In this document: one piece after another, positions 3,040 through 51,600 of the stretch
How the letters are laid out: each line of letters begins with the position of its first letter
Numbering within the stretch: position 1 is the first letter of the stretch
Source: Chrysochromulina tobinii
Lineage: Eukaryota
Length of the DNA stretch: 64,000 nt
Assembly: GCA_001275005.1 (NCBI GenBank)
Contig: JWZX01002881.1
Span: 1 to 64,000 of the forward strand
Reading direction: 5' to 3'
Notes under the pieces: model-generated
Told to the model about the DNA's origin: nothing
The model's input: only the letters and a program-made list of their open reading frames with translations
The model's database searches: none
Translations under genes and position numbers: made by a program

Positions 3040-4559
3040 CTACCGGCGACGGGCCTTCGGCATTGTAAAGTGGCGTAGGTCCGAACCGGCCTCAGAGCCG
3101 CGCTCCTTCTCCAGGAGCTTCACAGCACTGTTTGCGAGTTTGTGCGACCACAGCATCCGCCGACAACTCCAGCCGCATCTGCTGCGACGTGCACTTGCTA
3201 TTCCTTCCTCATTCTTGGTTTCGTTCAAGGGCGGTAGCCAGCGGTTGGCCGTCAGCCATTCATGGCGCGCAAGCGCGGCTGTTCCGCGCGTCGCGCCAAA
3301 GGCGACCACCTGGTTTGGCTGGTCACCCATCCCCAGGAACGCCGTCCACGACGATGCGTTCCGTGCGCCATGCCCATGAGCCGTCTCAGCACTCGGATCG
3401 CTCCGTCGGATCCAGGCCAAACTGTCGGGAGAGGCGCACCTGTGGGGAAGCGCGGGCGCCGTGGTGAGCACGTGCTTGCAGGGCGAGCACTCGGATCGCT
3501 CCGTCGGATCCAGGCCAAGCTGTCGGGAGAGGTGCACCCGTCATCGGGTCTCTGTATACGACACGATCGGGCCGCACATTCGTACTCCGAGTCATACTTG
3601 CACCAAATCGCTGGAACGCCGCTGCGAATGAGAAGAGGCACCACATTGAAGCCTCGGCTCCAACGTGTGCTCTCGTTGCGTCTCGCTACGGTGAAGCCAG
3701 TGGCGGAGTAGCGGCAGATGCGCAAGGCTGGTGCGAGGCTTTGATAATACGCGTACAGCGCGCTCTCGATCCCGAGGCACTCTCGGCAGTGCCCTTGGGC
3801 GAGCCACGGAAGAACACCTAGGGCAAGGCGCCGGGCAGCGAAGGCGAACACGGCATGCCGACCGTTCAGTCCGCGCAGATGGTTGCCGTTCACATGATCC
3901 TGACCCTCTGTCACGTGGATCTCGTCAACTCGAGCGTGTACAACCCCAGGAGGGCACGCATAGAAGAAGTCGGACCGCGTCAACACAACCTGCTCGTACG
4001 CATCGCCTGGCAACGCGTCGAGCCGCCGGAGCAACATCATCCGAAGAGCCAGCACAATGGCTCCAGAGCCACGAAGGATTCGGCCCTGAGCGTCCCGCGC
4101 CCCGCCCCAAAGGCCAGTTGGCGCCGCCCAATTGGTGGTGACGGGTAAGCTCACGTTGCCACGCCACCCCTTTCCCTCCAGAAGTTCATCGATCGTCTCG
4201 TCCCAATACGTGGACTCGTTGTGTATCCATATGTGACGAGCAGCGCGCACTAAGGGACTTGCAATCGATGCATGGTGTGCAACGTCGGCATCAGATGCAA
4301 GTAACGCCAGATCTGCATGCAGCGGTCGGACAAGCTGTTGAACTGTTGAGTCCCAGGCAGCATGTCCTCCTCGGAGGTTGCCTATCATACACACGATCGT
4401 CGAGAGCGCTTTCACGCCGGAATAGGGCTGGCTAGGAGTGGCAATACCTCGCGCATCAGCGCAGCTAAACCATGGAATGCCGCCCTTAGGCAGTGGAAGG
4501 TGGCAACGTGGTCTCACGGGAGACGCTAAAAACACGAGGAACGGAAGAAGAGAACGCAT
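3040..4559 (-). CDS. Secretory-pathway protein of unknown function, possibly glycosyltransferase-like; intron 3440-3537
   Basis: Signal peptide, IVCMIGNLRGG and VVLTRSDFFY motifs. Splicing 3537->3440 joins ORF 3252..4559 in frame to ORF 3040..3537. Confidence 0.6.
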
Positions 4560-4808
4560 CGGGGTGAAAGAAAGACGTTGGTGTCACCCGCATCGCGACT
4601 CGCTTGGGCGACGTGTCTGTCGGGGTCCTTCAGCCAGAGAGGGCAGCAGGGTCCATCCCATTCTCGAGTTCCTGTGAAGAAGTCTGTGCATGCAGTCTGA
4701 TCTCAACAAACACCGAGAGCGCGCGCGCGCAACTGCGGTAGTGTGTCATAGACCCGAGGGGATTCGCTTCGACTTTGCCTTTTTAGGAAATCGTGGATTT
4801 CTTGAGAG

Positions 4809-6241
4809 ATGTGTGCATGGCATTCACAAGTGAAGTGCCAGCCACACATGCGCTTCTCCGACAGCTCAAAATGGCTTGGGCCGCAACTTGTTGTTACCAA
4901 TTTGTCTGCTTGTGCACATGCATGCTTTGCTCACCCAAGGCGATGCTCGCACTTCCTACACAACGTGCAAAACGCCTGCTACTTTCTCGGAGCTCAGGTA
5001 GAAATCATGGAAGACGCGCCACAGCATCAGAGCGTCGCATGCCGTGTGCGCCCCAGTCACAAATCGTTCGTTTTTTGGATGCCAGCATACGTTTTTGACG
5101 ATCCAGACTGGGCAAATAAGCCGTATCCATACCTATACCGGAGAGGCGCAAAGGGCCTCACGGAACGCGATGCTGGAGGCTACGATAAGAGTCAGGGCAA
5201 TCTGTTCGCGCAAATGGAGCCACGCCTCTTTTTCAATGCGCCGCGTTTCGCTGGCGTGCCTCACCGCATTGAAGACCAAGAGTCGCATATGCCAGATGCG
5301 AAAGATAAGCCCTGCACAACTTACCAAGGTGCCTTGCAATGCTTCATTGAGCACGATGAGTGGATGATGGCGGATGCTTTCGTGAATCCGAGCCACACAA
5401 TCATCGAATTCGGCGCTCGCTATGGCACCACCTCCTGCCGTCTGGCTCGACTGACCAACAATTCGGGCAACGTCGTGAGCGTCGACCCAGATCGGCAGTC
5501 CACCATGTTTCTTCTCGCCAACCGTGAGACGCATCGCTGCAATTTTCATGCGATCAGTGGGACGGTCTCAGCTACTCCTCAACGCATCCGTGCCCGCCAA
5601 GGTTACGCTACGCGCACCGACCCCATCGAGCTCACCGGCGGCCGCGCTGGCCCGGAGGAGGGCGGCATTCGCAAACTTCCGAATTTGGGCATACTTCCAA
5701 ATTTTGGCTTCCGAGAGGTCGAGGAGCACATTGACTCCCTCATCATGATTGCCTCCCTCATCATGAGCGCCTCCCTCACCATGATTGCCTCCCTCATCAG
5801 GTCGAGGAGCACATTGGCTCCAAGATTAATGCGATCCTCATCGACTGCGAAGGGTGCATACGGTCCGTGCTCTCGATCCCAGGCCTTCTCGCGCAGCTGG
5901 AACTTGTCTTGATCGAGGAGGACATGTACATGCGTGACACAAATGGGACTTCTCCGTCCGAGGACCTGATCGACTATCGACTTTGGCACAGGCACCTCGA
6001 ACAGGCTGGCTTCCGTCAGGTGTGGCGTTCACATGACACCTTCGACCCCAAGAATAAGCCTTGGTCGCGCTTCCTCTATCACAGCGCGTGGGTGCGAACG
6101 ACCAACACAAGTTACAAGCAAGACGAGAACCAATGCCAACTCCACAAACGTGCGCAAGGGCTGTCCAACGAGCAACTGCACTGTTCGACTCTTCATGAGG
6201 GCCCCTGGGACCCTGGGAATGTGCTCGGAGGTGCGGTTTAA
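4809..6241 (+). CDS. FkbM-family SAM methyltransferase; intron 5718-5800
   Basis: IIEFGARYGTTS and VVSVDPD motifs. Splicing gives FRE|VEEHIGSKINAILIDCEGC...LVLIEED. Confidence 0.8.
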
Positions 6242-6581
6242 AGCGGTTATTCCCAGGTGACGTGTGTGACGCGACGCTTAAACGTGTGACATCGGCGCGC
6301 CACCGTCGCGTGCAGAAATACGCGTATGCCCGATGCGCGCGTGGCAAATAAATGCGCGCGCCGTCCATACTGTGTGGCCAATGCGCGCCCTCTTTGAGGG
6401 CGGCCGAGGGCGTCACATCAAAATATGTTCTCATCAGGGAACCCACGCCGCCATGCGATGCATCGTGCGCCCTTGAGGTTCATGAGCATTGCATGCTGAT
6501 GGCCTCTGATGACGTGTGATGGCACGCCTCATGCGCCCTTGAGGGTCATGAGGACCCCAGGTTACGCCCATGACGGCGCCC

Positions 6582-9197
6582 TCACGCGCCCTTGAGGGTC
6601 ATGAGCACGCCGAGCACGCCCACGACGGCGCCGATCGGCACGAGCGAGTACACCGCTGCACGCTCGAGGGCAGAGCCCGCCGGGCGCGCACGCACGTAGA
6701 TGAGGGCTGGGAAGATGTACACGATCAGCGCGCCCAACACCTGATGAAGGAGGCCATCGGAAGGCAACGCATCAGAGGTACGATCAGGGAGCGCACTCAG
6801 AGGTGCAATCAGAAGTGCAATCAGAGGTGCAATCAGAGGCAATCAGAGATGCCATCAGAGGCAATCAGAGGTGCCATCAGAGGCAATCAGAGGTGCCTCG
6901 ATCGTATCGCGATCCTCACGCACGGAGCCCGAGATGCCATCAGATGCCATCAGGTGCCATCAGTGGCAATCGTAGGCAATCAGGGGCAATCAGAGGGATT
7001 CGCACGGAGCCCGAGATGCCGACGACGAGGCCGATGTCGAGGACCGTGATGGCGATGGCGGTGATCGCGGCCAACAGGCCAATGGTCAGCACGTTCGCAT
7101 GCGTCGTCGTGAGCGCGAGCAGCGCGCGCGCGAGGAGCGTGCGCGGCGCCGTCGTGGGCGCGCCCTTGACGAGCGCCGTCGTGGGCGCGCCCTTGCCGAG
7201 CGCCGTCGTGGGCGCGCCCTTGGCGGCCGGTGCGCCGCCCTGCGTGGAGGAGGAGCGGAGAGCGGTCGAGATGAGCGACGCCGTCGACTCACGCAGCCCG
7301 AGCATCGCGAGAGGGAAGCCAAAGAGGATCGAGATGAAGGTGGCGACGCGTCCAAAGGTGGCCAGCATGTCGGCAGACGCGTAGTTGGAGAGCAAGTTGG
7401 ATTTCGTCACGTCGCCAAACGTCGCGTACCTGTGGGGAAGAGGGAGGGGGGCGCCGTGGTGAGCACTTGCATGCTGGGCGAGAGAGAGACGTCAAACGTC
7501 GCGTACCCGAGCCGCATCATCCCGAGGTAGAGGGCGGTGAGGATCCCAAAGGCATACCTGTGGGGAAGAGGGTGGGGGCGCGCCGTGGTGAGCACTTGCA
7601 TGCTGGGCGAGAGACGGAGCACTTGCATGCTGGGAAGTGAGAGGGCGGTGAGGACTCCAAATGAGGCGAGAGACGGAGCACTTGCATGCTGGGAAGTGAG
7701 AGGGCGGTGAGGACTCCAAAGGAGGCATGCGTACAAGCACGCTTTGCCCGAAGCGGGCCTCGGATCGGTGCTCGAGATGAGGGGGGCAATCAGCATGCAA
7801 TCAGCATGCGTACAAGCACGCTTGCCCAAAGCGGGCCTCGGAGCGGTGCTCGAGCGACTGATGAGGGGGGCAATCAGCATGCAATCAGCATGCGTACAAG
7901 CACGCTTGCCCAAAGCGGGCCTCGGAGCGGTGCTCGAGCGACCGGTAGAAGGCGGGCGCGTTGTAGTGGGCGATGTACGCGAGCCCCAGGTTCGATGTGA
8001 GCACGAGCGCCTGATGAGGGGGGCAATCAGGACGCAATCAGCATGCAATCAGCATGCAATCAGGTCGCGAGCCCCAGGTTCGATGTGAGCACGAGCGCCT
8101 GATGAGGGGGGCAATCAGGACGCAATCAGGACGCAATCAGCACGCAATCAGCATGCAATCAGCATGCAATCAGGTCGCGAGCCCCAGGTTCGATGTGAGC
8201 GCGAGCGCCTGAGCGTTGAGCTTCCACGTCGATGCGAGCTTGAAGGCGGGTGTGAGCGCCGCAGGCAGAGCCTTGAGCAGCTTGCCGGCCGGCAGGGCAT
8301 ACGAGCCATCGAGCGCTCGGATCGCCACAAAGAACGCAGTGTACACGACGGCGACGCACCTGTGGGGAAGCGCGAGCGCCGTGGTGAGCAAGTGCATGCT
8401 GGGCGAGCGCGCGCGGATCGCCTCCAAGAGCGAGCGCCGTATCGAGCGCCGTATTCACGACGGCGACGCACCCGAGCAGCGACGTGAACGCGAGCGCGGA
8501 CACGTCCTTCAGAAGGGAGAGAGGCGTCAGCGCTACCAGTGTGATGGCCGCGATGTTGGTCGCGCGCTCGTTGAGGCCTGCGAGCATGCGGGCACGAGGC
8601 ATTCGGTGGTCATCCGAGGCATTCGATGGTCATCAGTGGCAATCGGAGGCAATCGGCGGCGGCAATCACACCTTTGGCAATCCCCGTGAGAGAGAGAAGC
8701 TGTGTGGAAGTATCGCCCAGGATGCCTGCATAGATGATGGCCGCGCTGAAGCACATGAGCGCGATTGACGCGTCCACGATCCACGCGGTGCCTTCCCCCA
8801 GCGTGGCGGCCCACAGCGACTTGAATGACATTTGGCCGGTAAGCTCGCACGAGGCGCCGATCAGATGGAAGGTCCACCCGGAGATGATGCCGAGCGCCAC
8901 GCAGAGGAGCGTGGCGGGCACGCTGCCCACACCGCCTGCCATGCCAGCCGAGAGCGTCAGAATCCCCGCGCCCGCCACATTGTTCACGATTTGGATCACG
9001 GTGCCCATCAAGCTGACTGGCGCTGGCTCCTTCAGAGCCGGCACGGCACTCTTGCGTGCCGCAAGCAGCGACGGCGCTTGTGGCGCCCGCGGGCGCCGCT
9101 CGAGCGCTCTGGGGCGTGTGTCGAGCGTGTCGGCGCTCGTCGAGGCTAGGAACACCAGCGCTGCTGCGACCTTCAGCAGTCGCGCCATCGATCTCAT
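6582..9197 (-). CDS. Amino-acid transporter (Aa_trans/SLC38-like), multi-exon
   Basis: IVNNVAGAGILTLS, LTPLSLLKDVSALAFTSLLG, AHYNAPAFY, GYATFG, SNLLSNY and VYIFPALIY segments across exons. Introns include 8360-8471, 8011-8208 and 7430-7506. Confidence 0.85.
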
Positions 9198-11451: not shown

Positions 11452-11675
11452 CGGGGTAAGTTTCGCCTCACACGCGAATGCGGCTTAGGCCTTGACTAGA
11501 CCTTTCCGTTGAGGTCGGTCTGGAACTACCCAACGGTGAGCTGTAACATGTTGCATGAGTTTCCAGATTCATTGGTCTTTTTTGGATTGGGCGCTTCCAT
11601 ATTTGGATTTGGAATGCTCGAGCTGATCCAACCTTGCCTCCGCCAAAGGTGCCCTTCCCAGGGCTAAGGTGCTTT

Positions 11676-13315
11676 ATGGCGCCCGCTCCTGCGCCCGCCG
11701 CTGCCTTGGCAGTCTCCGAGCCGCCCTCCACCCGGCCATCGGGGAGCTCATGCGTCTGGGTCGCGAATCTGCACATCCGCAAGTGCGGTGGCACGACCGT
11801 GCGGTCCGTCTTCTCCAACATGTCCAACTGGACGCAGCTTGGGGGCTATTGCTCCGCGTCCAAGTTTGGCGACAGCAGCAAGAGCTGGAGCCAATTCGTG
11901 AATAGCTCCGAACGCGACGTGAATAGCTGGATGTATCAACACTACGTCACGTCCCACAACAACACGGGCAAGTTCTGGAGCGAGGTGCACTGCGACGAGG
12001 ACGTGAGCAACTTCAACGCGGGCGTGCGGCAGATGCGCGCCATGCTTGCACCCAAAGGGTGCCGCGTGATCACGACGCTGCTGCTGCGCGAGCCGGTCGA
12101 CCAACTGGTGAGTGACTGGACCTACTTCCGCCAAGACCCGGACAAGGTACGCACGAGCAGGCCGTCCGAGTGGGCGCCGAGGAAGCCCGAGAACCTGCTG
12201 CGATGGATGGCCGAGTCGCAGCGCGACTTTTGGACCGAGTCGGATCGCTCGCCCACGGCCCCGTGGCACGAGGCGAGATGGAATCCCATCAAGTTCCACG
12301 TCAACGGCACCACCGACACGTACCCGGTGCCACAGCTCCGCAAGTCATGCGCCGAGGCGCTCGCATTCTTCGAAGCCCAGATCGCCCAGATCGACCACGT
12401 GGGCGTGATCGACACCGCCGAGCAGTTTGCACAGTGGTGGCTTCTGCTCGCAGACGATGCGGGCTTCGATGCGGCAGTAGCGACGAGCGCGAGGCAGAAC
12501 ACGCGCATGCAAGTCTCGGTGCGCGACCGCCCGCGGCCCTCCCTTGTATGACGACTCAGCCGTTGGGGGTCTGCATGCAAGTGCTCACCACGGCGCGCCC
12601 GCACTCCCTACAGGTGCGCGACCGCTCGCGGCCCCTACCGCCGAAGGTCAGCGATGCAGAGCGGCAGGTGATGGCCGCTCTGAATGCATGCTCGACTCGT
12701 CTCCATCAATTCGCAAAGGATATCCTCGCCGCGCGCGTCGATGGCACGATCGCGGTCTTGAGCGCTGCCGTGAGCGCTGCCGCCGCCGACCGCCGCTTCC
12801 ACACGCGCCAGTCCGACATAGCCATCGCCCGGTCGCTCGGCGCAGCCGTGCATGCACCGGTACCGGTACCCGACATAGCCATCGCCCGGTCGCTCGGCGC
12901 AGCCGTGCATGCACTGGTACCGGTACCCGACATAGCCATCGCCCGGTCGCTCGGCGCAGCCGTGCGTGCACCGGTACCGGTACACAAAGCGAGCACCAGC
13001 CTCGCAGAGGACGACACAAGCGTGTACGCGCGCGCAAGGCGCTTGGTGCAGCTATGGGGCGGCGAGAACCTCGCGAGCCTAGAGGCGCTTCACGTGGATC
13101 TCGATGAGGAGGAGGAGGAGGAGGAGGAGGAGGAGGACGAGGAGGAGGCGGGGGAGGGCCTGGACTCTTCCGACTCGTACTTGTACACGCTCAAGCCCTC
13201 TCACGAGATCGACCCCAGCTTGAATCCACCGTACAGCTATCTCTCCTACGGGGGTGGGCCGGAGCGTCCCCCCGGACTCGACCCGAGCTACAACGGCGGG
13301 GAGCCGCACCAGTGA
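11676..13315 (+). CDS. Sulfotransferase-like protein (Sulfotransfer_2 type); intron 12519-12613
   Basis: LHIRKCGGTT (5'-PSB-like) and LLREPVDQLVS (3'-PB-like). The splice joins ORF 11634 to ORF 12170 in frame. Confidence 0.7.
12812..12985 (+). repeat. 57-bp coding tandem repeat x3 (DIAIARSLGAAVHAPVPVP)
   Basis: Three near-identical units seen directly. Confidence 0.9.
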
Positions 13316-22842: not shown

Positions 22843-22849
22843 ATCGGGG

Positions 22850-22886
<37 letters not shown>

Positions 22887-25110
22887 CTCGACCTCTGCCG
22901 CCCTCTCCGCGGCCTTGGTGAGCTTGTACCTTTCGTACTCTGCCTCGAGGGCCGCCACTTGCTCCTGGGGTACGCCCTGCGCGGCGGTGAGGGGGCCTAC
23001 ATCCTGCGCTCGATCAGCTTCCATAGTAGGATCCGCTTCCAAATTAGGGAGCCGCTCGACCACGCTCCGGAAGGGGCGCGCGCCGCCGTCGACGCCCGCC
23101 ACGACGCCCGTGCGCGGCGGCAGCAGCTGCTGCCACCTCTGCTGCCATTCGTGCGGCACCATGCCGCTCGCATTGCCTAGATGGCCCAAGGAGAGAAGGA
23201 GCGCGCCCAAGGCACAGAGCTTGGCCGTTGCGGCGATGCGAGATCGCGATCTGGAGGCGCTCGGGGAGCACAGCCCACCGCCTCCGATGGAATGGCCGAC
23301 CGCCTGCGCCACGGCCGCCTTGGCTGCATCGGCCACGAGCTTGCCCGCGATCATAGAAGACGCTCGATGCAGCACGTCGGCTGGCGCGACCTCCGGAATC
23401 TCGCCCGATCTCCGGCGCTTCGGCTCACCACGGCGCTTCGGTTCCGGTCGTTTATTCATCGGGTTGGGGGTCGGGGGGGGGCTCTCTCGTGCACCACACG
23501 ACAAGGGGCTGCGCCCATGCAGCGCCAAGTCGCCGTAGCCCGAAACGTGCTGCAGATGGGAGTACGACCCGCCGCCGGCGCGCCCGTTGACGCAAGGGCT
23601 CCCGCCATCGCATGAGCACGTGCAAGGCGCGTCGTAGTGGGCGCCGAGCGCCTGGAAGGAGCGGCGCGCCGCGGTGGCGGAGAGGCGTTCGCTCGAGGCG
23701 CCGCGCCGTAGCGAGCACGAGGAGCATGAGGGCGACGCGTACGACGACGCGCCGTACTGGGCGCCGCACGGCGAGGCGGCGTACGAGGAGGGCGACGGGT
23801 TCAAAGGCGAGCACTTGGGCGGCGCGCCGAACGACGGTTGTAATGGGGACGGATGTGCAGTGGAGCCCGCGAAGCCGGCGACGCCGCCGTACGCGGTGGT
23901 TGAGGGCGAGGCGGTGGTGGTCGGAGAGGTGGGCACCATCACGGAAGCGGGCACCTGATGAGGGAGGCAATCAAGAGGTCCTCAGATCGATTCAGATCGA
24001 CTCAGATCGACTCAGAGCGACTCAGAGCCACTCAGAGGAGGCCATCACGGAGGCCATCACGGAGGCCATCACGGAGGTCATCACGGAGGCCGGTACCGCG
24101 ATGGGTGAGCACCAAGACGAGCAGCCCGGCGAGTCCCTAATTTGGCAAGAGTCCCTCCGTTGGCAGCCCGGCTTCTGGTCCATGAAGAGCGCGCCCGATT
24201 TCTTCGTCGCGGCGGAGTACGCGGCGGCCGCGGCGGCCGCGGCGGCCTCGGCCATGGCACGTGCCTCTTCGGCTTCAATGGCAGCCAGCCTCGCCTCCTC
24301 CGCCGCAATCGCAGCCTCCTCCGCCTGCACCCAGGCCTCAAACGTCTTCTCCTCCTCCTCCAGCGCCGCGAGCTCCTCGGCCAACGCCGCCGCCTCGTCC
24401 CTCGCCGCCGCCGCCGATGACGTGGCCGCTGACGTGGCCGATGACGTGGGCGTTGACGTGGCCGTTGACGTGGCCTGGGCTGTGGCGGCGGTGGCGGCGG
24501 CTGGTGACAAACTCCCTGGCCGCCGTCCCACATTCGGGCTATTAAAGAACGCTCGCGCTGCGGCAGGTGCGGGAGCTGCGGCCGCCAGCGCATCCTCATG
24601 TTCTGGCGTCTCCGCCGATGTGCCACAGCTCGTCTGGACGAGGCCCGTTGACGAATTTGACGAATCGGCCGCCTGCTGCCGTGAGAGCAGCGTCGGCGTC
24701 GCGAGGATGGGACTCGGTGGCCCCTCTGGCTCGGCACTAAATTGGACGATGCCGTCTAAGCTGCCGCGCCCTTCCTGCTGCTGGCCCGCTGCTGCGCCCT
24801 CGTCGTCGCCCAAGGATGTGAGCTGCTCGATCTCAAGGTTGCCCGTCGTCGACTGTCGTGAGAGCGCGGCTCGCGACAGCACGGCGGCATACTGGTCGAG
24901 ATCCAAGCTCGGCTGCCGGTGCAGCGGCCGAGAGGATGCGGCCGGCGCTGCGGCGTGCGACGGCGACCCGAGCTGCTCAACGTCTCTGGCGGGCGACGGT
25001 GAGCTGCTCGTGAAAGAGTCGTCAGAGGCCGAGCCCGAGGATCGTCGCAGCCGCAACTGTGCGCCGAGGCGCGGAGTCTTTGGCGAATCCAGCGCCTCCA
25101 GCCCGAGCAT
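22827..25110 (-). CDS. Low-complexity hypothetical protein with a coiled coil and late hydrophobic segment; intron 23955-24096
   Basis: ORFs 24022..25170 and 22827..23954 join in frame via GT...CCTCATCAG. The 3' end is uncertain. Confidence 0.55.
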
Positions 25111-30200: not shown

Positions 30201-33200
30201 GCAGCGTGATCGAGAGACCGGCCGAACGAACCTGTGGGGAAGGGGTAGGCGCGCCGTGGTAAGCACTTCGCCCTTGATGTGTACGAGCGCGCCATGGTGA
30301 GCACTTGCATGCGCACCTTCTCCCTCAGGATGTGAACGAGCTGCGGGTCAGTGTAGTCGGCGAAGAGGAAGGCGTCCTCGGGCCGAAAGCGCCTCGCGAG
30401 CCCCGGGTTGGCATCGCGCAGCAGCGCGTTCACGTCGTCCTCGTAGCCGCACATGATGATCGCGATGTCCTCCCCGGGGGTACCTTGCACCTGATGAGGG
30501 GCGTCATCGGATGGCAATCAGAGGCGATCAGATGGCAATCCGTTCGTCATCAGATGGTCCTCAGATGGCAATCAGGGTACCTTTTGCACAATGGTATCGA
30601 CGACATTCGCGCAAAAGGAGTTGGACGAGCGCTTCGGGTTGAGGCCGTAGCACTCGTCGATCAGCAGTACCTGGTGAGCATCGTGGTGAGAGGGCGTCGT
30701 GGTGAGCATTTGCATGCGCTCGGCCTGTTCGCGCCGTGATGAGCATTTGCATGCGCTCGGCCTGTTCGCGCCGTGGTGAGCATTTGCATGCGCTCGGTCT
30801 GTTCGAGTCGTCGATGAGCCGCACCTTGCCTCGGCAAGCTTCGAGAAGCTCGACCGTCTTGCGCTCGCTCTCACCGACCGCAGAGCCCAAAAAGTCCGAG
30901 GGTCCCTTGACGACCACCTGATGAGGGAAGCCATCAAGGGAGGTCATCAGGGAGGTCATCAGGGAGGTCATCAGGGAGGTCATCAGGGAGGTCATCAGGG
31001 AGGTCATCAGGGAGGTCATCAAGGAGATCGCACCTCGCCGTTCGAGAGGAAGCCGAAACGCTTGAGGAGTCGCCCAAAGAGCTGTGGAAGGAGGGCCAAG
31101 CGCCGCGGTGAGCACTTGCATGCACGGTAGGGGTCCTGGGTTGAGCGCTCCGCGTACCTTGGCGACGGTCGTCTTGCCAGTGCCGGGCTTGCCGTAGAAG
31201 ATCCGATGGAGAGGGACATAGAGAGGCTTCTCGCCTCGAGCCTCGCGCTCCCAGTTGCCCAGCTGGAGGTGCATCAGCTCGCGCACCTGATGAGGGATGC
31301 AATCATATGCAATCAGATGCAATCAAGGGGTGCAATCAAGCTGGAGGTGCATGAGCTCGCGCACCTTGGCCTTCACCTCGTCGAGGCCGGTGAGTGTCTC
31401 TAGCTCCTTGAGCTCAGGCGAGTTGTCGAGCACCGGCTTGGCACCCTGATGAGGGGCGCAATCAAGAGGCGTCCTCAGAGTTCATCAGAGTGCTCATCAG
31501 TGGGATCATCAGCGCTCATCAGCAGGATCATTAGTGCTCATCAGTGGTATCATCAGTGCTCATCAGTGGCCTCCGTACCAGCGCATCCTCCCGCGAGATG
31601 GTCGTCGCCATCTCAGCGCTCGGCGTCTCGCCTCCGTCGATGAGCATCGAGAGGCGCTCCTCTTGTCGCTTGATAGCTTGCTCGATCTGATTGCGCACCT
31701 GATGAGGCAGCCAATCAGCATGCACTCAGCCACGCAGCATTACGAGGTTGAGAATCTGGCGGCAATCAAGGGTTGCAATCAAGGGGTGCAATCAAGAGGC
31801 GTCATCAGAGGTCATCAGAGGTTGAGGATCTGGCGGCGGCGCACCGCGCGCGCGTTGCCAAAGCCGCGCTGCCCCGCGCCGTAGGCGAGGCGCGAGGCGA
31901 CGATCGACGCGACCGACGGGCTTGCCTGATGAGGGGAGCAATCAGCATGCACTTTTTCAGCGATGCACACTCAGCGATGCACGCAGCATGCAATCAGGTT
32001 GTCGCGTTCGCGCCAAAAGAGCTTGCCGACTCGACGACCATCTTGCGGTCGCTCATCATCTTGTGATAGATGGCGCGCAGCTCGGGCTCGAGATAGTCCT
32101 CGAAGACCCACCTGATGAGGGGCGTAATCGGAGGTCATCAGTGGCAATCAGCTGGCAGGTAGCATGCACTCAGAGGCGCACTCACGTGTTTGGGAAGCGC
32201 GACGCGAGCCCCGGGTTGAACGAGAGTAACGTCTCGACTTCATCACGGTAGCCCGCAAGCACAACCGAGCACTCGCCACGCTTATCCTCCGCAAAGGTGA
32301 GCAGCAGGTTCATGATGTCGGCGCCGTCCTTGTTGTTCTTCGGGTCGAGCTGGTACACCTCGTCAATGAAGAGCACGCCGCCGTCGACCTGCTCGAGCAT
32401 CTTCTTGAACTCGTCCGCGCCGTCCCGGAGCAGATTACCGCCGGTGGTGCTCCGTATTTCGGAGCTCGAGCGCAGCTTGAAGTCGTGCAGGATCTTGGCC
32501 ATCAGACGCGACACCTCCGTCTTGCCCGTACCTGATGATAGAGGCCGTCAGGCGTCATTAGAGGCGTCATTAGAGGCAATCAGAGAGGCCACCAGGGGCC
32601 ATCATTAGAGGCCATCAAGGGCAATCAGAGGCCATCAGACGTGCCCGGGTTGCCGATGAAGACAAAGTGGCGGTTCACGTCGGCGGTAGCGTCCGCCGGC
32701 TTCAGGCTTGCAAGCTCGACGGAGTACGCGACGTTGAGCGCGTCGCGCTTGATGCGCTCGAGGCCGACCATCGCCATCAACTTGTCCATCGCGCTCGACT
32801 TAATCTCGGGGTGCTTGAGCTTGTACCTGATGAGGGAGGCCATCAGCCATCCTCAGAGGCCATCAGAGGCCATCAGAGGCCATCAGAGGCCATCAGAGGC
32901 CATCAGAGGCCATCAGTGGTCATCAGAGGCCATCAGAGGCCATCAGAGGTCATCAGAGGTCATCAGAGGCCATCAGAGGCCATCAGAGGCCATCAGAGGC
33001 CATCAGAGATCATCAGACGTACCGCTCCCACTGCGCCTTCGCCAGCGACGCGGATGCCGATTCGAGCGGATCGTCGTCGTCGTTCTCCATCAGCTTCTCG
33101 ACCGTATCCTTATTTGGGTCGAGCCAGAGCGCCGCCTCTGCCTCGAAGAGGGCGAACGTGCGCAGGTACAGCGATGCACGCAGTCGGTGCTCCTTGGCGG

Positions 33201-36200: not shown

Positions 36201-37640
36201 ACATCGCGTAGCGCCGCCTCGAGCGCCTCCATCCCCTTAGCTTCCTTCTCCTTGTCGCGTAGGGGCTCGTCCGTCACCGCGAGGAGGAGCATCACGATGT
36301 CCTAGACGACTTCTCGCTCGAGAAAGGCGCCGAGGGCGGTCGCCTGCTCGGCCGTGGCGGCGGCGCCGAGTTGGGCGGCCTGTTTCTTGTCGATGCGTGC
36401 GGCGAGCGCATGCAAGAGAGTACCGGCCTCGACGAGGTACCTGAATGAGGGAGACTATCCGAGGTCATCAGAGACCATCCGAGGCAATTAGAGGTCATCC
36501 GAGGCCATCGAGGCCATCCGAGGTCATCCGAGGCAATGGAGGCCATCAGAGGCCACATCGGAGGCCATTACTAGGGGATTGGAGGCCATCAGAGGTCATT
36601 AAGAGGCCATTAAGAGGCCATTAAGAGGCCATCAGAGGCCATTAAGAGGGTATTAAGAGGGGATCGGAGGTGATTGGAGGCCAGCCGACGTACTGGAGGG
36701 TGGCTGGCGAGAGCTTCTTCGTGCCCAGCATCGCCTTCGACTGCAGCGAGCTCGAGAGCGAGAAGGTGCACTGTGGATCGATCTGCAGGGGCGGCCGCAG
36801 CGAGGGCGATGCGCGCAGCATCTTCGCAAGCGTTCCGAAGAGGCCAGTGAGGTTCCACTTGGGGAGGAGCTCGCAGAGAGGGTTCTTCTTCTCTGGATCG
36901 AGCGCTTGGCTCATATTGGCCCGTGAGCGTTGCACGCTGCTCTCGCCCCACGTGATGGCGAGCGACAGCACTGGCCCCATCGATTCGGCAGCTCGAAAAT
37001 CGATGCTCGTCGAGATCATCGAGATCGTCGCGTCGGCTGTGTCGCCGCCGCCGTCGGTGCCGCTCTCGGCGAGGGCACGGCAGATGCGCTCGCACGCGCT
37101 GAAAACCTGCAGCACGCTCATGCCGCGCATGAAGATGTCGGTGAGCGTCTCGGCACGCGCCTTTTCGACGCCCTCAAACGGCGGCTCCGCAAGCAACGAG
37201 CGATCCGAGCTCTTCTTCTTCTGCTCATTCTCCATCTTGCGAGCACGTATCGTGCTGAGCAGCGCCGCGCACTCGTCAAAGAGGACCTCGAAGCTCTGGC
37301 GCGCGCCCTCCATGGCCTCCATCAGCGTCGCTCCCTCCGCCGAGCGCAAGAAGCGTCCCCACAGCTCGCACACCTGATGAGGGACGCCATCAGCATGCAC
37401 TCAGAGAGGCAATCAACGGCAATCGAAGAGGCCATCCAGAAGCGTCCCCACAGCTCGCACACCGAATCCAGCGTGCTCACGTAGCTCGCAAGCGTCGCGA
37501 GCGCCGTGACTGCATGCAGCTGCACCCGCTCCGTGCGCATCGGATGGGAGAGCACCCACGAGATGACGCGCAGCGACGGCACGAGGATTTCGTCATTGGG
37601 CGAGTCATCGGCGTGGAACACGGACTCCATAAGAGTCCTC
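27287..37640 (-). CDS. Intron-rich gene: helical N-terminal region, three CbbX/SpoVK-type AAA+ modules and a thioredoxin domain; an in-frame TAG at 36302-36304 may mean it is partly pseudogenised
   Basis: AAA1: GNPG|TGKT, GGVLFIDEVY, NPGLASRFP. AAA2: GKPGTGKT, LLIDECY, NPGLARRF. AAA3: GAPGVGKA, GGVLFIDDAG. Trx: VDFTATWCEPS...MPTF. Roughly 20 or more introns inferred. Confidence 0.8.
29058..29158 (-). mobile_element. 101-nt GC-AG intron, putative source copy
   Basis: About 5 differences from 31926-32026. Its 5' ~26 nt duplicate its own downstream exon. Confidence 0.65.
31926..32026 (-). mobile_element. 101-nt GC-AG intron, putative transposed copy
   Basis: Near-identical to 29058-29158. It carries the exon tag of the 29057 site rather than its own. 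Confidence 0.65.
32835..33017 (-). repeat. Intronic 9-10-bp microsatellite (ctctgatggc)n, representative of many similar tracts
   Basis: Related tracts at 6790-6995, 29660-29735, 30930-31022, 34260-34315 and 36460-36660. Confidence 0.9.
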
Positions 37641-40106
37641 CAAGAGTGCTCGTACTTCGAGAGCAGCTCACCCTGCTTGATGCCGATGTGGTCAATCTTG
37701 GAGCTCTCGAGTTCCTGAACGGCGTCCATGCCGTCCTCACCGTAGAGGAACTCGAGCACCTTGCCGGCGTTACGCACGGTGTCGTCGTATTTGACGATGA
37801 TGTCCTCCATCGCCTTCACGAGACGGCGCTGGATGTAGCCCGTCTCCGCCGTCTTGACCTTGTTGAGCACTTGGTTGACCGAATGCTCGAACGACTCCAT
37901 CATCGTCTTGCCGGGCTGGCACTCGAGCTCGGCCGACTGGGCGCGCTCGACGAGCGCCTTCACCTCGCGCTTGGACGCCTCGATGGTGGCGACGATGTCG
38001 TCCAACGTCTTCGCATCAGCGATCGTGTCACCGATCCCGATCGAGTACGAGCGCTGCAAAATCCTGTGGTTCACGACGCGCTGATGGCAGCCCAAAAAAA
38101 CGCGGGCTGCCCTGCGGCCCGTGCTCGAGCCAGATCGTGTGCACGATCGCACCGCCGCTCGTGCCAAGCATCTTCTTGTCGAGCATGCCTGCGAGCAGTT
38201 CGCCGCCGTCGGGTGAGAAGACAATCAGAGGCCATCATCGGTCGGATGCAATCAGAAGCCACCAGAGGCCATCAGAAGCGAGCATGCCTGCCAGCAACTC
38301 GCCGCCGTTGATGATGACCTTCGTGTCGGTGGGCGACATATCGTCTTTCTCGTCGTCGGGGCGACCGTTGGATGTGCCTGAGAGGTAGATGTTCGGCAAA
38401 AAGAGACCCATGATCTGCTTGCCCGTCCAGAGCGGCTTGGGCTTGAGGATGGCGGGCGCGGGCAGCTTACCCGAGAACGAGTCGAGGTGCAGGATCAGAT
38501 TCATCACGAGGTCCTTCTCGAGAAGCAGTCGGGTCGCGTGAAGGCACGCAAGCCGAGGAGGGTATCCTGCACGATGCCCATGACGAGCTTGTTCGACTGT
38601 GGCGACACGATGCAGCGCGGCGTGAGCATGATCTCGGAGCACTCGGCGCGCGTCTCGTGCGTCTGCAGCACGTGCGTGTTCATCTTGTCGCGTCAAAGTC
38701 GACATTGTACAGCGAGGTACAGCTGAGATTCATCCGGAAGGTGGAGTAGGGCATGATCTTGATGCGGTGGCCCATGATCGACATTTTGTGCAGCGACGGC
38801 TGCCGGTTGAACATGAAGATGTCGCCGTCTTGCACATGCCGCTCCACCTTGTACCCGGGCTGCAGCGCCTTTTGGACGTTTGGCTTCGACAAGCCGAGAC
38901 GCAGACCGTCGTTGCGGATGATGTAGCGTGCGCCGGGCAGCGTCGACGGCCCATTTTCAAAGAGCTCCTGCAGCTTGGCGATGTTGAAGGGCGTGACCAC
39001 CTCCGGGTACGTGAGCGTGCGTGCGACCGTGCGCGGAACGCCCACCTCATCGATGGCGAGATTCGGGTCGGGCGTGATGACCGAGCGAGCGCAGTAGTCA
39101 ACTCGCTTGCCCATGAGGTTGCCGCGGATGCGGCCCGCTTTCCCTTTGAGGCGCTGCGAGATGGACTTGAGCGGCCGACCCGAGCGTGTGGTCGCGGGCA
39201 TCATGCTCACGGAATCTGATTCTCCACCATCATCGCGATGCGGTACTGGAGCAGCCGCGTCGTCTGCAGCTGGATGTGGTTGGGCGCTCCATTCTTCTCG
39301 AGCTCTCGCAACGACTTATTGACGCGCACGATGTCCTGGAGCATGAGAGTGATGTCATCCTCGGCGCGCCCGCCCGTCGAGTCCATCTAGACCGACGGGC
39401 GCACGTGCGGCGGCGGGATCGGCAGCACGGTGAGCACCATCCAGTCGGGCCGCGCGTAAATTGGATTGAAGCCGAGCCGCAACGCATCCGAGTCGGTGAT
39501 GCCCTTGAGAATGCTATGCGCGCGCTCGGGCTGCACTTCCATCTTGCGCTCGTGGTCGTCCGTAGACTCCTTAAACTCGGCCGCGATCGTCAGCCCGTCG
39601 CGCTTGAAGTTCGGTTGCGGCGCCGAGCACGACCAGCACGTCTTCTTCGTCTTCGCAAAGTCCATCACGGCGCGCAGCCGCTGCGCCGGGTTCTTCTTGC
39701 GCGTGGCAGCGGCGAGGCGTACCCCGTCGGGGTTTGCCTTGCCGTCTTCGGCTGGCTGGTCGCCAAGGATGGCCGAGCACGAGAAGCAAACGCAGCGCAG
39801 CACCTTGAGCGTCGTGTTGAGGAAGGAGACGTGGTACATGGGCTTCGTGAGCTCCAAGTGCCCGAAGTGACCCGGGCACTCAGAGGAGTCCATGCCGCAG
39901 CTCGCGCAGTTCAGGAGGCGGTCGATGGCGCCGAGCGCCGGGTCCATGAGCCCGCCAGGGATGGGCTTGCCATTCTCAAAGGTGCGGTCAGTGACGATAT
40001 TGCACACCGACGACGCCTTCAGCTCCTCGGGACCGAGGATGCCAAACTGGACGCGGCGCACCTTGCGCACGCCCGCCTCCGAGTAGCGGAAGCTCACGCC
40101 GCTCAT
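37640..40106 (-). pseudogene. RPB1: Disrupted N-terminal half of the RNA polymerase II largest subunit
   Basis: [66 protein letters not shown] and YGEDG motifs. TAG at 39387-39389, frameshifts near 39205, 38692, 38517 and 38105, internal deletion at 37858/37859. No C-terminal half or CTD. Confidence 0.9.
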
Positions 40107-40336
40107 GGTGGCGGCCGACTCCGACGCTGCCGGCGGCGCGGCGCCTTGCACAGGCAGGCAGGCAGTGGCAGGGCGCCAGCGCGCACCAGCGCAGAGTGGC
40201 TCATAGGGAGACTCGCAAAGACGTGTCGAGGCCCACGACGGCGTCTTCGCGCGAACCCCGGTTCGACTGGCCAAGTGTGGAGGATGTGTGAACAAGTAAG
40301 GACGAACTGTTATTCACGACGGGCATCGGCTCGGAG

Positions 40337-47065: not shown

Positions 47066-47204
47066 TGCCGCCTGCAGTGTTTCTTACCCCCTGACAGTGA
47101 CTCGCTCCCCGGCTGTGCGTCGCACCGCGCGCACTCAAACGATGATTCTGAGGCGCATGCCGTTCAGTCTCATAGGCTTGGCATCTTTTCCAAGGCTGAG
47201 CGTC

Positions 47205-48571
47205 TTACTTCTTAGGCTCGAAGAGGCTGCGCGCCTGCTCGATCAGCGGCTTGACGACGCGTGGCGCCGCAAATGGAGGCGATTTTGAGGGCTCCGCTGC
47301 GGGCGTGCTCGGCGGGAAAGGGCGGGAAACGCCGATAGGCGTGGCTCCGCCTCGCGCCGCCGCGTCGGCGTCGTGGTGGAGCGTCGGCGCCGCAGCCCCC
47401 TCACGCGCCGCCTCGGGCGCTGCCTCGGGCGTTGTCTCGGGCGCTCCCTCGCGCGCTGCCTCGGGCGCCCCCTCGGGCGTTGTCTCGGGCTCCTCGTCGG
47501 AGTCGCCCCATTTGGATCGTGCGCGGCTTTGGATGGGCGGCATAGCCGGAGCGGCAGCGCGCTCGGGCGGCTCGAACGGCGGCGGCGGCGGCGGGGGCGG
47601 GGGCGGCTGCGGCGGCGGCGGCGTAGCCAGGGCAGCTTGGCTGGTGAACTTCTTGCCGGTCGTCGAGCCCGCCTTCTCGACCTCCAGAGCGGCCGCGGCG
47701 GTGCCTTCGCTCATCACGGCGCTCGGCGGCGGCTCGACACCGTCGATCGGGCCGGGCATCGGCGACTCGGGCCGTTCGCTCAAGTAGCGCATGCAGGCCG
47801 GCCAGAGCGCAGGCGGCACACGCGCCGCCAGCCCATACTCGAGGGAGACCATCGGCAGCTCCGATGGGTCATCGGCGAGCACTGCGGGCGCGAGCGGCGG
47901 CGGCGTGCCGACGGCGGCCTGGGTGGTTCCAGCGGCCTGGGTGGTTCCAGCGGCCTGGGTGGTTCCAGCGGCCTGGGAGGCTCCAGCGGCCTGGGTGGCT
48001 CCAGCGGCCTGGGAGGCTCCAGCCTGGTTCGTCGTCCCGACGGCGAGCGACTGCGTCTTGAGGAAGGTGACCAGGTGCTCAGGCGAGAGGCTCGACGAGA
48101 GGATGCGTAGATTCACAGGCTCGTGCAGCACCGCACAGAGCAGGGTGGGCAACAGGACTTGGCGGCAGCGCGGCTCGCAAAAGTAACGGAAGGGCAGCTC
48201 GACCAGCCGGTGGAGCATCGTGGGGTGGGCACCCCAACGCCAGCGCAGAGCCTCCGCATTCCGCGGAGAGTGCAGGCAGAAGAGGCCAAGGAGCAGCAGG
48301 ACCTCATGCAGCAGCAGCCGCAGCTCAGCGGTCACGGCGGCGTCGTCGGCCGCAGGCGAGCTGGACGGCCGCGCGGCGAGCGGCGAGGCGCGTCCGCTCG
48401 CGGGACTCGCGAGGCCCACGCCGGTGCCCGCGCCGCCCGGCTCCGTGCGCACTTGAGCCTTCTCGACGGCCCCGAAAAGGGAGAGGGTGAGGTGCGCCAG
48501 CTGGAACGTGTGCAGTCGCAACTCTTCGGCGCCCAGTGCGCGCCGCAGGAAGCAGTCGTCGCCGCCCCCGC

Positions 48572-48610
<39 letters not shown>

Positions 48611-51600
48611 CAACAGCCCAGCGAGCCCACGTGCACGAGAAGCTGGATGGCGGTGCGACACACCTTGAGGACCGCCGGGGTGAGGCCCGAGGCGATGCCC
48701 GAGGCCGAAAGCTCTGCGGTTGGCTGCGGCTGCGAGCCGGCGGGCTGCGTCGACTCGAAGAGAATGTTCTTGACCATCTCCGGCACGCCGCTCAGCCCAG
48801 ACTCTTCGAGGTACTCACGGAGCGGTGTGGCGCACGCCGCGCTGCCATCGGCATGGAGCGGCAGCAGCAGCGCGTGCAGCAGCGCAAAGTACTGGATGAG
48901 CAGCGGCTGGTGGCGCGCGGCGCCCGAGAGGGTCATCGCACACGCACCGCAGTAGTCGCGCAGCATGTGCAGCCCGCCCGAGAACAGCACCACCACGACG
49001 AGGTCCGCGCGCAGCTTGCGGTGCGCCTCGGCCACGGGCGGCGTCGCGATGACGAGGCGCAGCACCTTGAGCAGCGGCAGCAGCAGCGCATCGGGCGGCG
49101 CGGAGACCGCGATGGGTGACGACAGACGCCCATCGAGCGCCTCTTGTCGGGAGTCCAAGTCGACCGCCGCCGGCAGCAGCCCAAAAGCGAGCTTCTCAAC
49201 CGTGGCCGTTAAGAGCAGGTACGCGCGGTTCTGCGGCAGGGCGCACGCCGCGAGCAGCGCACGCGTGGCCGCCGTCTTGGTCGAGGCGCGCACCGCCGGC
49301 GGCGTCGTCGAGGCGGTTGAGAATGGTGCGGCCGTGCCTGCCGCGTCGGCGACACCGGCCATCGCGAGAGTGACAAGAGATTCGAGTCCGCCCTGCGTGC
49401 GCACGGTGTGAAGGTCTCGTTCACGCCCTGTCTCGAGGAGCCTGCACAGCTCCCACGCGCACGTCTCCGCGCCGTCGCAGTTGGGCTGCGAGGCGAGCGT
49501 GGCGAGCTCGCCGAGCAGCTTGAGCGTTCGCTTGGAGCCTTGCGCCGAGCCGGGGCCGCCCCAGAGCTGCTCCAGCTGCTCGATGTGAAGGCTGCTGGCT
49601 GTGGCCGCCATGCGCTGGCGCACCTTTTTGGCGCGGGCGCGCAGCTTGCGCAGCCTCACGCGCTCCGCCTCGCGCACCTCGGCCTGCGCCGCCTCCACCT
49701 GCGCGCGCAGCGGGGAGCGGAGCAGGTCGTGGACGCGGGAGCTGATCTCGAGCTGATCTCGAGGTGTGGTCGTCGAGAGGGCCGCGAGGTGGCTGGCCCA
49801 GGTGGAACCGCCGCCCGACGTGGCCAAGTTCGACGCCTCGTCGCCTTCATCCTTGGCGGCGAGCGCGGCGAGCGTGGGGGGCACGGCGACCACTGCCCCG
49901 TCCGTCGCGGCAAACTCGTCGACCTCTTCACAATCGGCCTCGGCGCCTTCGTCGCCTTCGTCATCCGTCGTCCTTGACGTCCTTGACCTTCGCGCCACCG
50001 CCGAGGCTGAGGACGGCGTTGGCTCCGCCGCCTCAGCCTCGGCCTCGGCCTCCTCGTCCTCGAGAAGCTCTCCGCCGCCGCCGCCCGTGCCTCCACCGCC
50101 ACCGCCGCCGCCGCCGCCACCGCCGCCGCCACCGCCGCCGCCGCCGCCGCCCTCGTCGCCCGAGACGGAGTAGTAGCCCGACTCCGAGGCGCCGCCTATC
50201 GAACCGCCCGTCGAGTCTGCCCTCGAGTGACCGCCGCGCTTCCGCCCATTGCGCTTGCCGCCGCCGCCCTTGTTGCGCCTGCCGCCGCCGCCCACCCAGC
50301 CGCCGCCGCCGCCGCCGCCGCCCACGACGGCGCCCTCGAGGGCGGCGAGGATGGACGGGTCGATCAGCTCCGACTCCGACTTGGACGAGCGCCTCTCCGC
50401 CGTCGAGACGCCATCCGTCGTTGAGTTGGCCTCCTCGGCCAGCGTGGCGCGCCGCGCCTCGCGAGTCTGCTGCGCCTGCACCGTGCGCTCAGAAGCCACG
50501 TGAGCTTGCGACATGAGCATCCGAATGTGCAGCAGACGGCGCTCGTTGGCCTCGGTAATCTTGCGCTCGAGCGCGCGACGCTTCTCCGCCTGCTCCGCGA
50601 GAGCCGAACGCGCTGTGGTGAGCACTCGCATGCAGGGCGAATTCTCAGTGGCAATCAACGCGACTGCTCCTCGAGCTCAAGCCTGCTCGTGCGCGCTGTG
50701 GTGAGCACTTGCATGCAAGGCGGGGCATCAGTGGCAATCAACGCGCCTGCTCCTCGAGCTCAGCCTGCTCGCGCCGCGAGATGACGTCGAGCCGCTTCTG
50801 GCTCTTCTGCGCGGCACGGTCGGCGACCGACTGCGTGAACTCCGTCCAGCGATGGTAGGCCTCGTCCACCTTGGAAGTGTGCACCTCGGTGCGCGCGTCA
50901 TCCATGCGCTTGCGCTCGAGCAGCCGCTCATTGGCGGCCTTCTCGCGCTCCGCGTTGGCCGCGGCCTGCTTGCCCAGATGCAGCTTGCGCCGCTCCTCCG
51001 CCTCGTTCATCTTCAGGGCGAGCTGCGCCTTTCGCTCCTCAGCCTCCTCCACCGCTGGGTCAGTGCTGTGGGACTTGATGAACGCCACCTCGTCCACCTT
51101 GCGTGACTCGAGACGCGCCTTGGAGGCCACCTTGCCGATGTGTGCCTCCCGGTTCGCCTCAGCCTTCTTATTGCGCTCCTCGATGGTGGCAGCCTTTGCG
51201 GACTTCATCTCCTCCTGCCGCTTGCGCACCTGCGGAGCGGGCGCCGTGTTGAGCACTTGCATGCGAGGCAGGGTTGGGGCTCGCGGACTTCCTCCTCAAC
51301 ATGCTTCATCAGAGGTCATCAGAGGTCATCAGAGGTCATCAGCGGACTCCCTCCTCAATACGCTTGCGCACCTGCGCCTCGTGCTCCCGACGCTGCTGCA
51401 GCCGCTGCGCCTCCTCGGCAGCCTTGCTCGCGCGCAACGCCTCGGCGTTCTTCTCGCGCTGCAGCTGGAGCTCATGCAGCTCCTCCGCCGTGCGTCGGTC
51501 GGGCGAGAGCAGCTTCTCTCGCTTCTCCTGCCGGCCAGTCGAGTCGGCAGACGAGCCCAGCGTCCCCACGCTGCTCCGGCGACGGCTCGGCGACGGCACG

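What the first reader, a model, noticed from the sequence alone, without database searches (positions are those of the whole stretch)
3440..51371. Intron-building system: duplicated exon supplies the donor and a shared cassette supplies branch point and acceptor
Seen: in unrelated genes on both strands, introns begin with a copy of the start of the NEXT exon (starting GT or GC) and end in one of two recurrent cassettes. Type I is TGCATGCAAGTGCTCACCACGGCGC...TTCCCCACAG; type II is CTGATTGCCTCCCTCATCAG. Examples with approximate duplication length: 3440-3537 (52 nt), 5718-5800 (16), 7430-7506 (14), 8360-8471 (16), 8011-8208 (33), 12519-12613 (22), 23955-24096 (18, diverged), 29879-29955, 31287-31364 (26), 37374-37462 (25) and 51230-51371 (11). 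In the cases I translated, splicing restores the frame and conserved motifs (e.g. IDCEG). Established: introner elements in algae such as Micromonas and Aureococcus are DNA transposons with short target-site duplications. Inference: variable long duplications and no terminal inverted repeats point to a different route, such as staggered-break repair or template switching with capture of a 3'-splice cassette. Varying divergence between copies suggests ongoing gain.
Basis: partly seen in the sequence, partly recalled or inferred. Interest (0 to 1): 0.92.

Follow-up and report, generated by a model that had tools for sequence, protein, structure and literature searches.

The report
Old introns copied into new introns
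In this unnamed freshwater eukaryote many introns begin with a copy of the exon that follows them and end like older, often nearby introns; one of them is spliced out of RNA yet missing from other alleles, so an error-prone DNA-copying step likely keeps building new introns from old ones, with no recognisable transposon.

Summary
Confirmed. All 11 named introns exist and copy the next exon's start: score ≥10 in 9 of 34 introns, 0 of 1,122 cross pairs. Intron 37374-37462 is spliced exactly in 3 of 3 RNA runs and absent, leaving one exon copy, in 3 of 4 DNA contigs. A 67%-identical homolog lacks 8 of 8 positions. The 'cassettes' are not fixed elements: they are 3' ends of older introns, without a fixed 5' edge or terminal inverted repeats. 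In four parent-daughter pairs the partner lies 0.05-5 kb away. Two daughters carry the parent's own exon-derived bases, and exon starts match at the return junction (p≈0.0015). The same duplication-plus-filler process also makes non-intron and antisense inserts. Best model: two-jump, microhomology-guided template switching during repair; because templates read AG|GT, the product is a ready intron. Enzyme, DNA versus RNA template, and gain versus loss at the polymorphic site are unresolved. The scan noted a similar footprint before on another piece of this genome (e1-2577349), read there as a mobile element.

The parts
3440..3537 (-). Type I intron, 52-nt copy of next exon plus 46-nt tail; likely daughter of 8360-8471
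   Evidence: dup 50/52; last 49 nt 45/49 identical to 8360; the 14-mer at the dup end has its only other <=1-mismatch hit in the window in 8360's next exon (8325)
5718..5800 (+). Type II intron, 21-nt duplication, in a methyltransferase-like gene (family name recalled, no Pfam hit)
   Evidence: present in 15 of 15 listed close cluster members; 5 of 5 more distant homologs read through the site; splicing gives a frame aligning to them (E 8e-78)
6741..7005 (-). Type II intron with an internal 20-nt copy spanning its donor
7430..7506 (-). Type I intron, 14-nt exact (21 with one gap) duplication; tail shared with adjacent intron 7558
   Evidence: 55/59
7558..7897 (-). Type I intron with a diverged ~29-nt next-exon copy and repeated upstream-exon copies whose type II filler matches neighbour 8011
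8011..8208 (-). Type II intron, GC donor, 33-nt duplication, two tandem units
8360..8471 (-). Type I intron, 16-nt exact duplication, probably ~50 nt and decayed; likely parent of 3440
12519..12613 (+). Type I intron, 21-nt duplication
   Evidence: crude ORF test not discriminating
23955..24096 (-). Type II intron, diverged 18-nt duplication
   Evidence: same 142-nt length in L002-L004
29058..29158 (-). Intron y: GC donor, diverged ~26-nt copy of its own next exon; parent of m
29879..29955 (-). Type I intron v, short gapped duplication
   Evidence: RNA contig pieces start at 29950 in X13 and X14
31287..31364 (-). Type II intron p, 26-nt duplication (26/26 in allele L006)
   Evidence: absent at exact boundaries in transcript-like contigs L005, L007; position absent in homolog P0106
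31926..32026 (-). Intron m: whole copy of y, including y's exon-derived 5' part, at a non-homologous site 2.9 kb away
   Evidence: 96/101; 9-nt match across the entry junction, 4-nt exon-start match at the exit
37374..37462 (-). Type II intron a, perfect 25-nt duplication; spliced and presence/absence polymorphic
   Evidence: 89-nt skip in X13, X14, X15; intron present in DNA run X1; absent in L002-L004, present in L008
28850..37462 (-). AAA+ ATPase gene region with 26 introns: 21 type II, 4 type I, 1 other
38180..38308 (-). 30-nt duplication spanning AG|GC with type II filler, in an Rpb1 fragment; both splice sites would come from the duplication
   Evidence: splicing not tested
51230..51371 (-). 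Type I intron, 11-nt exact, longer decayed duplication
52148..52240 (+). Non-intron product: ~12-nt duplication plus a type I fragment antisense to the host gene, 33-nt unit, in frame
6466..6552 (+). Non-intron product: duplication over the transporter gene's stop region with type II filler antisense to that gene

Best explanation
These are real spliceosomal introns that carry a copy of the next exon's start and the 3' end of an older intron, and they likely arise by a two-jump, microhomology-guided template switch during repair of a staggered break or stalled fork. Inferred steps: (1) synthesis runs 5-50 nt past the future insertion point; (2) the 3' end jumps by a few matching bases into an existing intron, often a neighbour, and copies its branch-point words, pyrimidine tract and AG, slipping on 10-12-nt words to give the tandem fillers; (3) it reads a few bases into that intron's next exon (mostly GT.../GC...) and returns to the target where the target has the same bases. 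The duplicated stretch therefore tends to begin with GT/GC and acts as donor, the copied AG abuts the second copy, and splicing restores the coding sequence exactly. Products that do not splice survive only inside introns, in frame, or in dead gene copies. Each new intron again reads AG|GT and can serve as a template, so the process would feed itself and would explain why nearly all introns share two tail types. A polymerase-theta-like enzyme is the likeliest agent (established signature of templated insertions; not tested here).
For: Shown: duplications beyond chance; exact 89-nt splicing of a polymorphic intron in 3 of 3 RNA runs, on contigs with 0-4 differences from the window allele; empty site with a linked SNP in 3 of 4 long DNA contigs that keep the other 25 introns of the gene; homolog P0106 reads through 8 of 8 window positions and breaks at a site of its own; 5 of 5 homologs read through site 5718. 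Parent-daughter pairs: m/y 96/101; 3440/8360 45/49 with a 13/14 match at the entry; 7430/7558 55/59; and, in a locus seen only after the model was noted, L009 787-871 from L009 107-186, 50/54, local score 40 against at most 17 for 37 window introns, carrying 5 exon-derived bases of the parent. Exon-start matches of these 4 pairs are 4, 5, 3 and 7 nt; 293 of 200,000 random draws reach the sum. Similarity falls with distance among the 26 introns (rho -0.19, 39 of 5,000 permutations). Failed product in L007/L009-L011: 24-nt exon duplication around words of the adjacent intron, no splice sites, 9-nt match at the exit. Antisense type I fragment in an exon argues against a strictly cis RNA template. 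No terminal inverted repeats or common 5' edge in 18 introns examined; fold z below -2 in 3 of 37.
Against: Only 4 pairs, picked by me from tail similarity; direction is clear for 2 (m from y, L009 pair), inferred for 3440 and open for 7430/7558. Adjacent introns are not significantly more alike than random pairs (664 of 5,000). No full-length parent was seen for intron a: other loci match only its last ~30-40 nt. No inverted short-range copy was found within 700 nt of any intron, although polymerase-theta products include inverted ones (PMC7407515). Intron words are 111 sense to 3 antisense in the AAA gene, which an RNA template would also give. About half of the 26 AAA-gene introns show only 0-4 matching bases, so their origin by this route is assumed. 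Later gene conversion could add to local similarity. Gain versus loss at intron a is not polarised: haplotypes are mosaics and flanking repeats also allow precise deletion. No genome was held, so no repair genes were checked.
Confidence: 0.6

Rival explanations
1. RNA-templated version: a reverse transcriptase (non-LTR element or repair polymerase) primes at a nick on an unspliced pre-mRNA at an AG|GT junction, copies the intron's 3' end backwards, truncates at variable points and leaves a variable target duplication, as in target-primed reverse transcription.
For: Same geometry: constant 3' end, variable 5' end, variable duplication. Three of 4 pairs lie within one gene. Strong sense bias and no local inverted copies. 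'Reverse transcription template switching' is a proposed route (passage in PMC3443670).
Against: 3440/8360 are in different genes with an opposite-strand gene between them; antisense fragments at 52148-52240 and 6466-6552; no poly(A); the one match of an insert to a spliced junction is 12 nt, chance level. An excised lariat cannot be the template for m, whose entry match runs into y's upstream exon.
Confidence: 0.22
3. Turnover of old introns in place: duplications across an existing acceptor are followed by loss of the upstream part, so sequences are new but positions old; empty alleles are losses by deletion between the repeats.
For: Such double-acceptor forms exist (intron c, 8011-8208, L009, L012), as do donor-spanning duplications (d, f, i, l). 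Polarity at intron a is open.
Against: Homologs with introns elsewhere lack 8 of 8 and 5 of 5 tested positions; m sits at a site non-homologous to its parent.
Confidence: 0.07
4. Assembly artefact.
For: The window is a mosaic of two haplotypes or paralogs (0 mismatches to L008 in five upstream exons, 0 to L002 in the five downstream exons compared). No long reads were seen.
Against: The introns recur in separately assembled contigs with allele-specific changes, in unitigs of DNA run X1, and are spliced in RNA.
Confidence: 0.01

Closest known systems
Intron gain by repair of staggered double-strand breaks, Daphnia pulex (PMC4202315, passages read)
   Same: New, polymorphic introns with a direct repeat of the adjacent exon at the far end, and internal repeats.
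   Different: There the repeats are 4-12 bp (33 cases), inserts AT-rich and mostly of unknown source. Here repeats reach 52 nt, and the source is an older intron's 3' end that brings branch point and acceptor.
Introner-like elements of Symbiodinium and Polarella classes 4/5 and 6/8/10 (10.1101/2020.10.14.339549, parts 1-2 of 4 read); introners generally (10.1101/2022.06.06.494994 and PMC12130899, passages read)
   Same: Donor recruited from the duplication, acceptor carried in, mRNA unchanged, massive lineage-specific gain.
   Different: Those have fixed 3-8-nt duplications, and inverted repeats in Symbiodinium. The Chrysochromulina example in the 2022 paper has a 4-bp duplication and carries the 5' site, the opposite arrangement.
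Intron transposition, reverse splicing, RT template switching (Mycosphaerella, Oikopleura; review PMC3443670, passages read)
   Same: A new intron homologous to another intron, here m from y in the same gene.
   Different: Reverse splicing predicts whole introns without duplication or flanking homology. Here mostly 3' fragments, with duplication and junction matches.
Tandem genomic duplication across AGGT (PMC3443670)
   Same: Duplicated exon supplies a splice site; the 38180-38308 case would take both sites from the duplication.
   Different: Usually only the donor is duplicated, and a foreign filler supplies branch point and acceptor.
Templated insertions of alternative end joining (SD-MMEJ, polymerase theta) and rice duplication-plus-insertion events (PMC7407515, passages read)
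   Same: Partial tandem duplications with fillers copied from nearby DNA through microhomology, iterated synthesis.
   Different: Not reported, in the passages seen, as a self-feeding source of introns; inverted local copies are expected there and were not seen here.

Membership tests
Spliceosomal (U2-type) intron | GT/GC...AG ends removed exactly in RNA | tested here: met
   for 37374-37462; for c, d and loose ends at b, i, s; for transcript-like contigs; 8 of 11 named introns not tested in RNA
Spliceosomal (U2-type) intron | Branch point used in lariat formation | not testable with these tools
   Branch-like word at -17 in most type II and -26 to -33 in most type I tails; the consensus it is compared with is recalled
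DNA-transposon introner (MITE type) | Fixed short target-site duplication | tested here: not met
   5-52 nt
DNA-transposon introner (MITE type) | Terminal inverted repeats | tested here: not met
   longest exact inverted match between ends 2-6 nt in 18 introns; at most 6 of 10 terminal positions
Introner (broad sense) | Many copies alike end to end with fixed boundaries | tested here: not met
   only tails shared; one whole-length pair among 37 window introns
Introner (broad sense) | High copy number of related intron sequence | tested here: met
   depth 66,994 against about 110 over intron a's tail; 25 of 26 introns of one gene
Fungal introner-like elements | Stable RNA structure, no duplication | tested here: not met
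   mean fold z -0.49, 3 of 37 below -2; duplications present
Non-LTR retroposition (TPRT) | Variable duplication, constant 3' end, truncated 5' end | tested here: met
Non-LTR retroposition (TPRT) | Defined element RNA and partner reverse transcriptase | not testable with these tools
   no genome held; no Rfam match in the window
Break-repair intron gain (Daphnia type) | Exon-derived direct repeat at a polymorphic intron | tested here: met
Polymerase-theta templated insertion | Local template with junction microhomology | tested here: met
   4 pairs and one failed product
Polymerase-theta templated insertion | Both direct and inverted local templates | tested here: inconclusive
   no inverted match within 700 nt; one antisense type I fragment about 790 nt from intron 51230
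Polymerase-theta templated insertion | Dependence on POLQ | not testable with these tools
   needs genome and genetics
Reverse-splicing transposition | Whole intron inserted with no duplication and no flanking homology | tested here: not met

The most novel reading that the evidence does not exclude
A transposon-free, self-feeding intron factory: introns beget introns because repair synthesis copies an old intron's 3' end and re-anneals through its AG|GT junction, so the product is spliceable by construction. It has built most of this genome's introns and its two stereotyped 3' splice signals, and is still active.
Probability: 0.5. Interest if true: 0.92.

Novelty: new variant of a known kind. 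Interest (0 to 1): 0.82.

Why it matters
Where new introns get their sequence and splice signals is a long-standing question; outside transposon-derived introners most gains have no known source (PMC4202315, PMC3443670). Here parent, daughter, junction homology, failed products and an empty allele are all visible in one genome. That makes a repair-based route directly testable. It also offers a mechanical reason for the AG|GT proto-splice-site bias and shows how a genome's splice signals can be homogenised by copying.

Tried and rejected
No genome was held, so there is no genome-wide catalogue. The joints table was swamped by repeats; only its pieces and loose ends were used. X1 showed no DNA joint for the empty allele, which is no evidence either way. 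Tail patterns gave 1, 0 and 1 hits in viral contigs (both hits look like chimeric contigs) and 0 in prokaryote genomes. Rfam: 0 matches. The type II tail can form a 5-7-bp hairpin, but it is weak and inconstant in 5 tails folded: rejected as an element end. An mRNA-junction template for intron g (12 nt): chance level. Another locus sharing about 11 exon-start bases and a similar tail with intron a is a lead only, since about 600 candidates make chance plausible. Polarising intron a by haplotype failed (mosaic alleles); weak hint: both empty haplotypes share one residue with the most diverged cluster member, and all filled ones differ. The crude ORF test favoured splicing for 8 of 11 introns; 8360 and 29879 are limited by the next intron, 12519 is uninformative. 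Naming the organism failed: no NCBI names among listed cluster members, and the protein atlas gave no answer.
Full report
Setting. The window is eukaryotic, 56-71% G+C per 2 kb. It occurs in mixed-culture and lake metagenome runs. No genome is held and no call names the organism.

Observation. A scan found 40 type I/II acceptor-like ends. All 11 named introns have the stated ends and a 5' copy of the next exon. Own-exon scores reach 10 in 9 of 34 introns and in 0 of 1,122 cross pairs. For the 26 introns of the AAA+ gene, not selected for duplication, 0 of 20,000 permutations reach the observed sum, although about half of them show 0-4 matching bases. In that gene 21 introns end in type II, 4 in type I and 1 in neither. 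The tails are therefore the normal 3' signal of this genome, with branch-like words at -17 or -26 to -33.

They are spliced. RNA contigs of X13, X14 and X15 skip exactly 37374-37462. The X14 contig has no mismatch to the window allele, and DNA run X1 holds the intron. X18 and X14 contigs bridge intron d, X18 bridges c, and loose ends fit b, i and s. Contig L005 lacks 11 of 14 introns it spans at the predicted bases. L007 lacks 5 of 6 and keeps the one whose acceptor is mutated; that these two are transcripts is inferred. Removing six introns gives an uninterrupted amino-acid-transporter frame, and removing 5718-5800 gives a frame that aligns with five homologs. The AAA model is open apart from one in-frame stop near 36303, which transcript-like proteins also show. 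Eight of the 11 named introns were not tested in RNA.

They are young. Of 10 loci fetched, four cover intron a. L002-L004 have a single exon copy and a linked SNP while keeping the other 25 introns; L008 has the intron. The three empty contigs are near-identical and may be one haplotype. Direction is not polarised, because alleles are mosaics. Homolog P0106 (67% identity) reads through positions l to s, 8 of 8, then runs into non-homologous low-complexity sequence at a site where the window gene has no intron, which suggests a DNA contig with its own intron. Site 5718 is filled in 15 of 15 listed close members and read through in 5 of 5 distant homologs, three of which break elsewhere.

Where the insert comes from. 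Intron m is 96/101 identical to intron y, 2.9 kb away in the same gene. It includes the part of y that copies y's next exon, so y is the parent; 9 bases match across the entry and 4 at the exit. Intron 3440 shares 45 of its last 49 bases with 8360, and the 14-mer ending its duplication has its only other near match in the window in 8360's next exon. Introns 7430 and 7558 are adjacent and 55/59 alike. After I had noted the model, locus L009 gave an independent pair in another gene: the daughter's insert is 50/54 identical to the parent's, begins with five bases of the parent's exon-derived duplication, and the two next exons share 7 starting bases. Exon-start matches for the four pairs exceed random pairs (293 of 200,000). 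I could only see local parents. But if the genome is near 59 Mb, as in C. tobin (assumption; PMC4580454), about 0.04 of 37 introns would have a parent in the window by chance, against three pairs seen. Against: adjacent introns are not significantly more alike overall (664 of 5,000), the distance trend is weak (rho -0.19, 39 of 5,000), and no full parent was seen for intron a.

The process is blind to splicing. Duplications with fillers also span donors of existing introns (d, f, i, l; several differ between alleles) and sit right after existing acceptors (c, 8011, L009, L012). One makes a non-spliceable insert in a fused gene fragment: a 24-nt duplication around words of the intron just upstream, with a 9-nt exit match. 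Another places a type I fragment antisense and in frame in an exon at 52148-52240. There are no terminal inverted repeats, common 5' edges or stable folds and no Rfam match.

Mechanism. Shown: anatomy, splicing, polymorphism, local parents, junction matches, failed products. Inferred: one synthesis event with two jumps, probably at a staggered break or stalled fork, by a polymerase-theta-like enzyme (0.6). Since 20 of 26 next exons in the AAA gene start GT or GC, re-annealing through the template's exon start would put the duplication's start on a donor. Selection would then keep the exact products, and each is a new template. An RNA template gives the same geometry (0.22) and fits the sense bias and the lack of local inverted copies. 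It fits less well with the cross-gene pair and the antisense inserts.

Comparison and novelty. Closest are Daphnia break-repair introns (4-12-bp repeats, sources mostly unknown; PMC4202315, passages), dinoflagellate introner-like elements with donors from fixed short duplications (10.1101/2020.10.14.339549, parts 1-2 of 4), proposed intron transposition and RT template switching (PMC3443670, passages), and templated insertions of alternative end joining (PMC7407515, passages). Hypoxylaceae sister introns have long inverted repeats and no duplicated splice sites (PMC8469720, passages). The 2022 introner survey shows a Chrysochromulina family of opposite arrangement (passages); the 2025 survey's main text does not name the genus; the C. 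tobin genome paper mentions introns once. Eight completed searches (listings and abstract starts, with only the papers named here opened) showed no report of this combination. The library lacks most subscription papers and I did not open supplements, whose family tables may list these tails. Within this scan, e1-2577349 saw the same footprint elsewhere in this genome and read it as a mobile family; my pairs argue against a fixed element. Verdict: real, a new variant of break-repair or intron-copy gain, interest 0.82.

Noticed in passing
window 37634-40313 (-): RNA polymerase II Rpb1 fragments are fused to a 5'-truncated copy of the AAA+ gene. RNA contigs bridge the junction, and the frame has an early stop near 36303. 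L002-L004 carry a different upstream sequence.
   Followed up: partly
window 34600-37630: The window switches from L008-type to L002-type sequence near 35000: a recombinant or a join of two paralogs.
   Followed up: partly
window 9292-11484 (-): ORF with an ADP-ribosyltransferase domain (PF01129, E 5e-10) followed by Armadillo repeats.
   Followed up: no
window 15651-15734 and 16379-16540: Duplications with a different 9-nt filler word, lengths multiples of three, inside a 1,313-codon ORF.
   Followed up: no
window 28850-28968 (-): The one AAA-gene intron with neither tail type; C-rich, with a 6-nt duplication.
   Followed up: no
L007/L009-L011: A transcribed-looking fusion of another gene to an internal piece of the AAA gene: gene fragments appear to be shuffled often in this genome.
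   Followed up: partly
L001 2950-3060; L012 190-520: Two 'viral' contigs contain type I/II intron ends and look like chimeras with this kind of eukaryote DNA; L012 shows a 14-nt duplication with a second acceptor.
   Followed up: partly
type II tails: The branch-like word is the reverse complement of the acceptor's last 5-6 bases, giving a weak hairpin; intron j folds strongly (z -7) through its 10-nt repeats.
   Followed up: partly
window 56024-57592 (-): Single-exon carotenoid-cleavage-dioxygenase-like (RPE65) gene.
   Followed up: no
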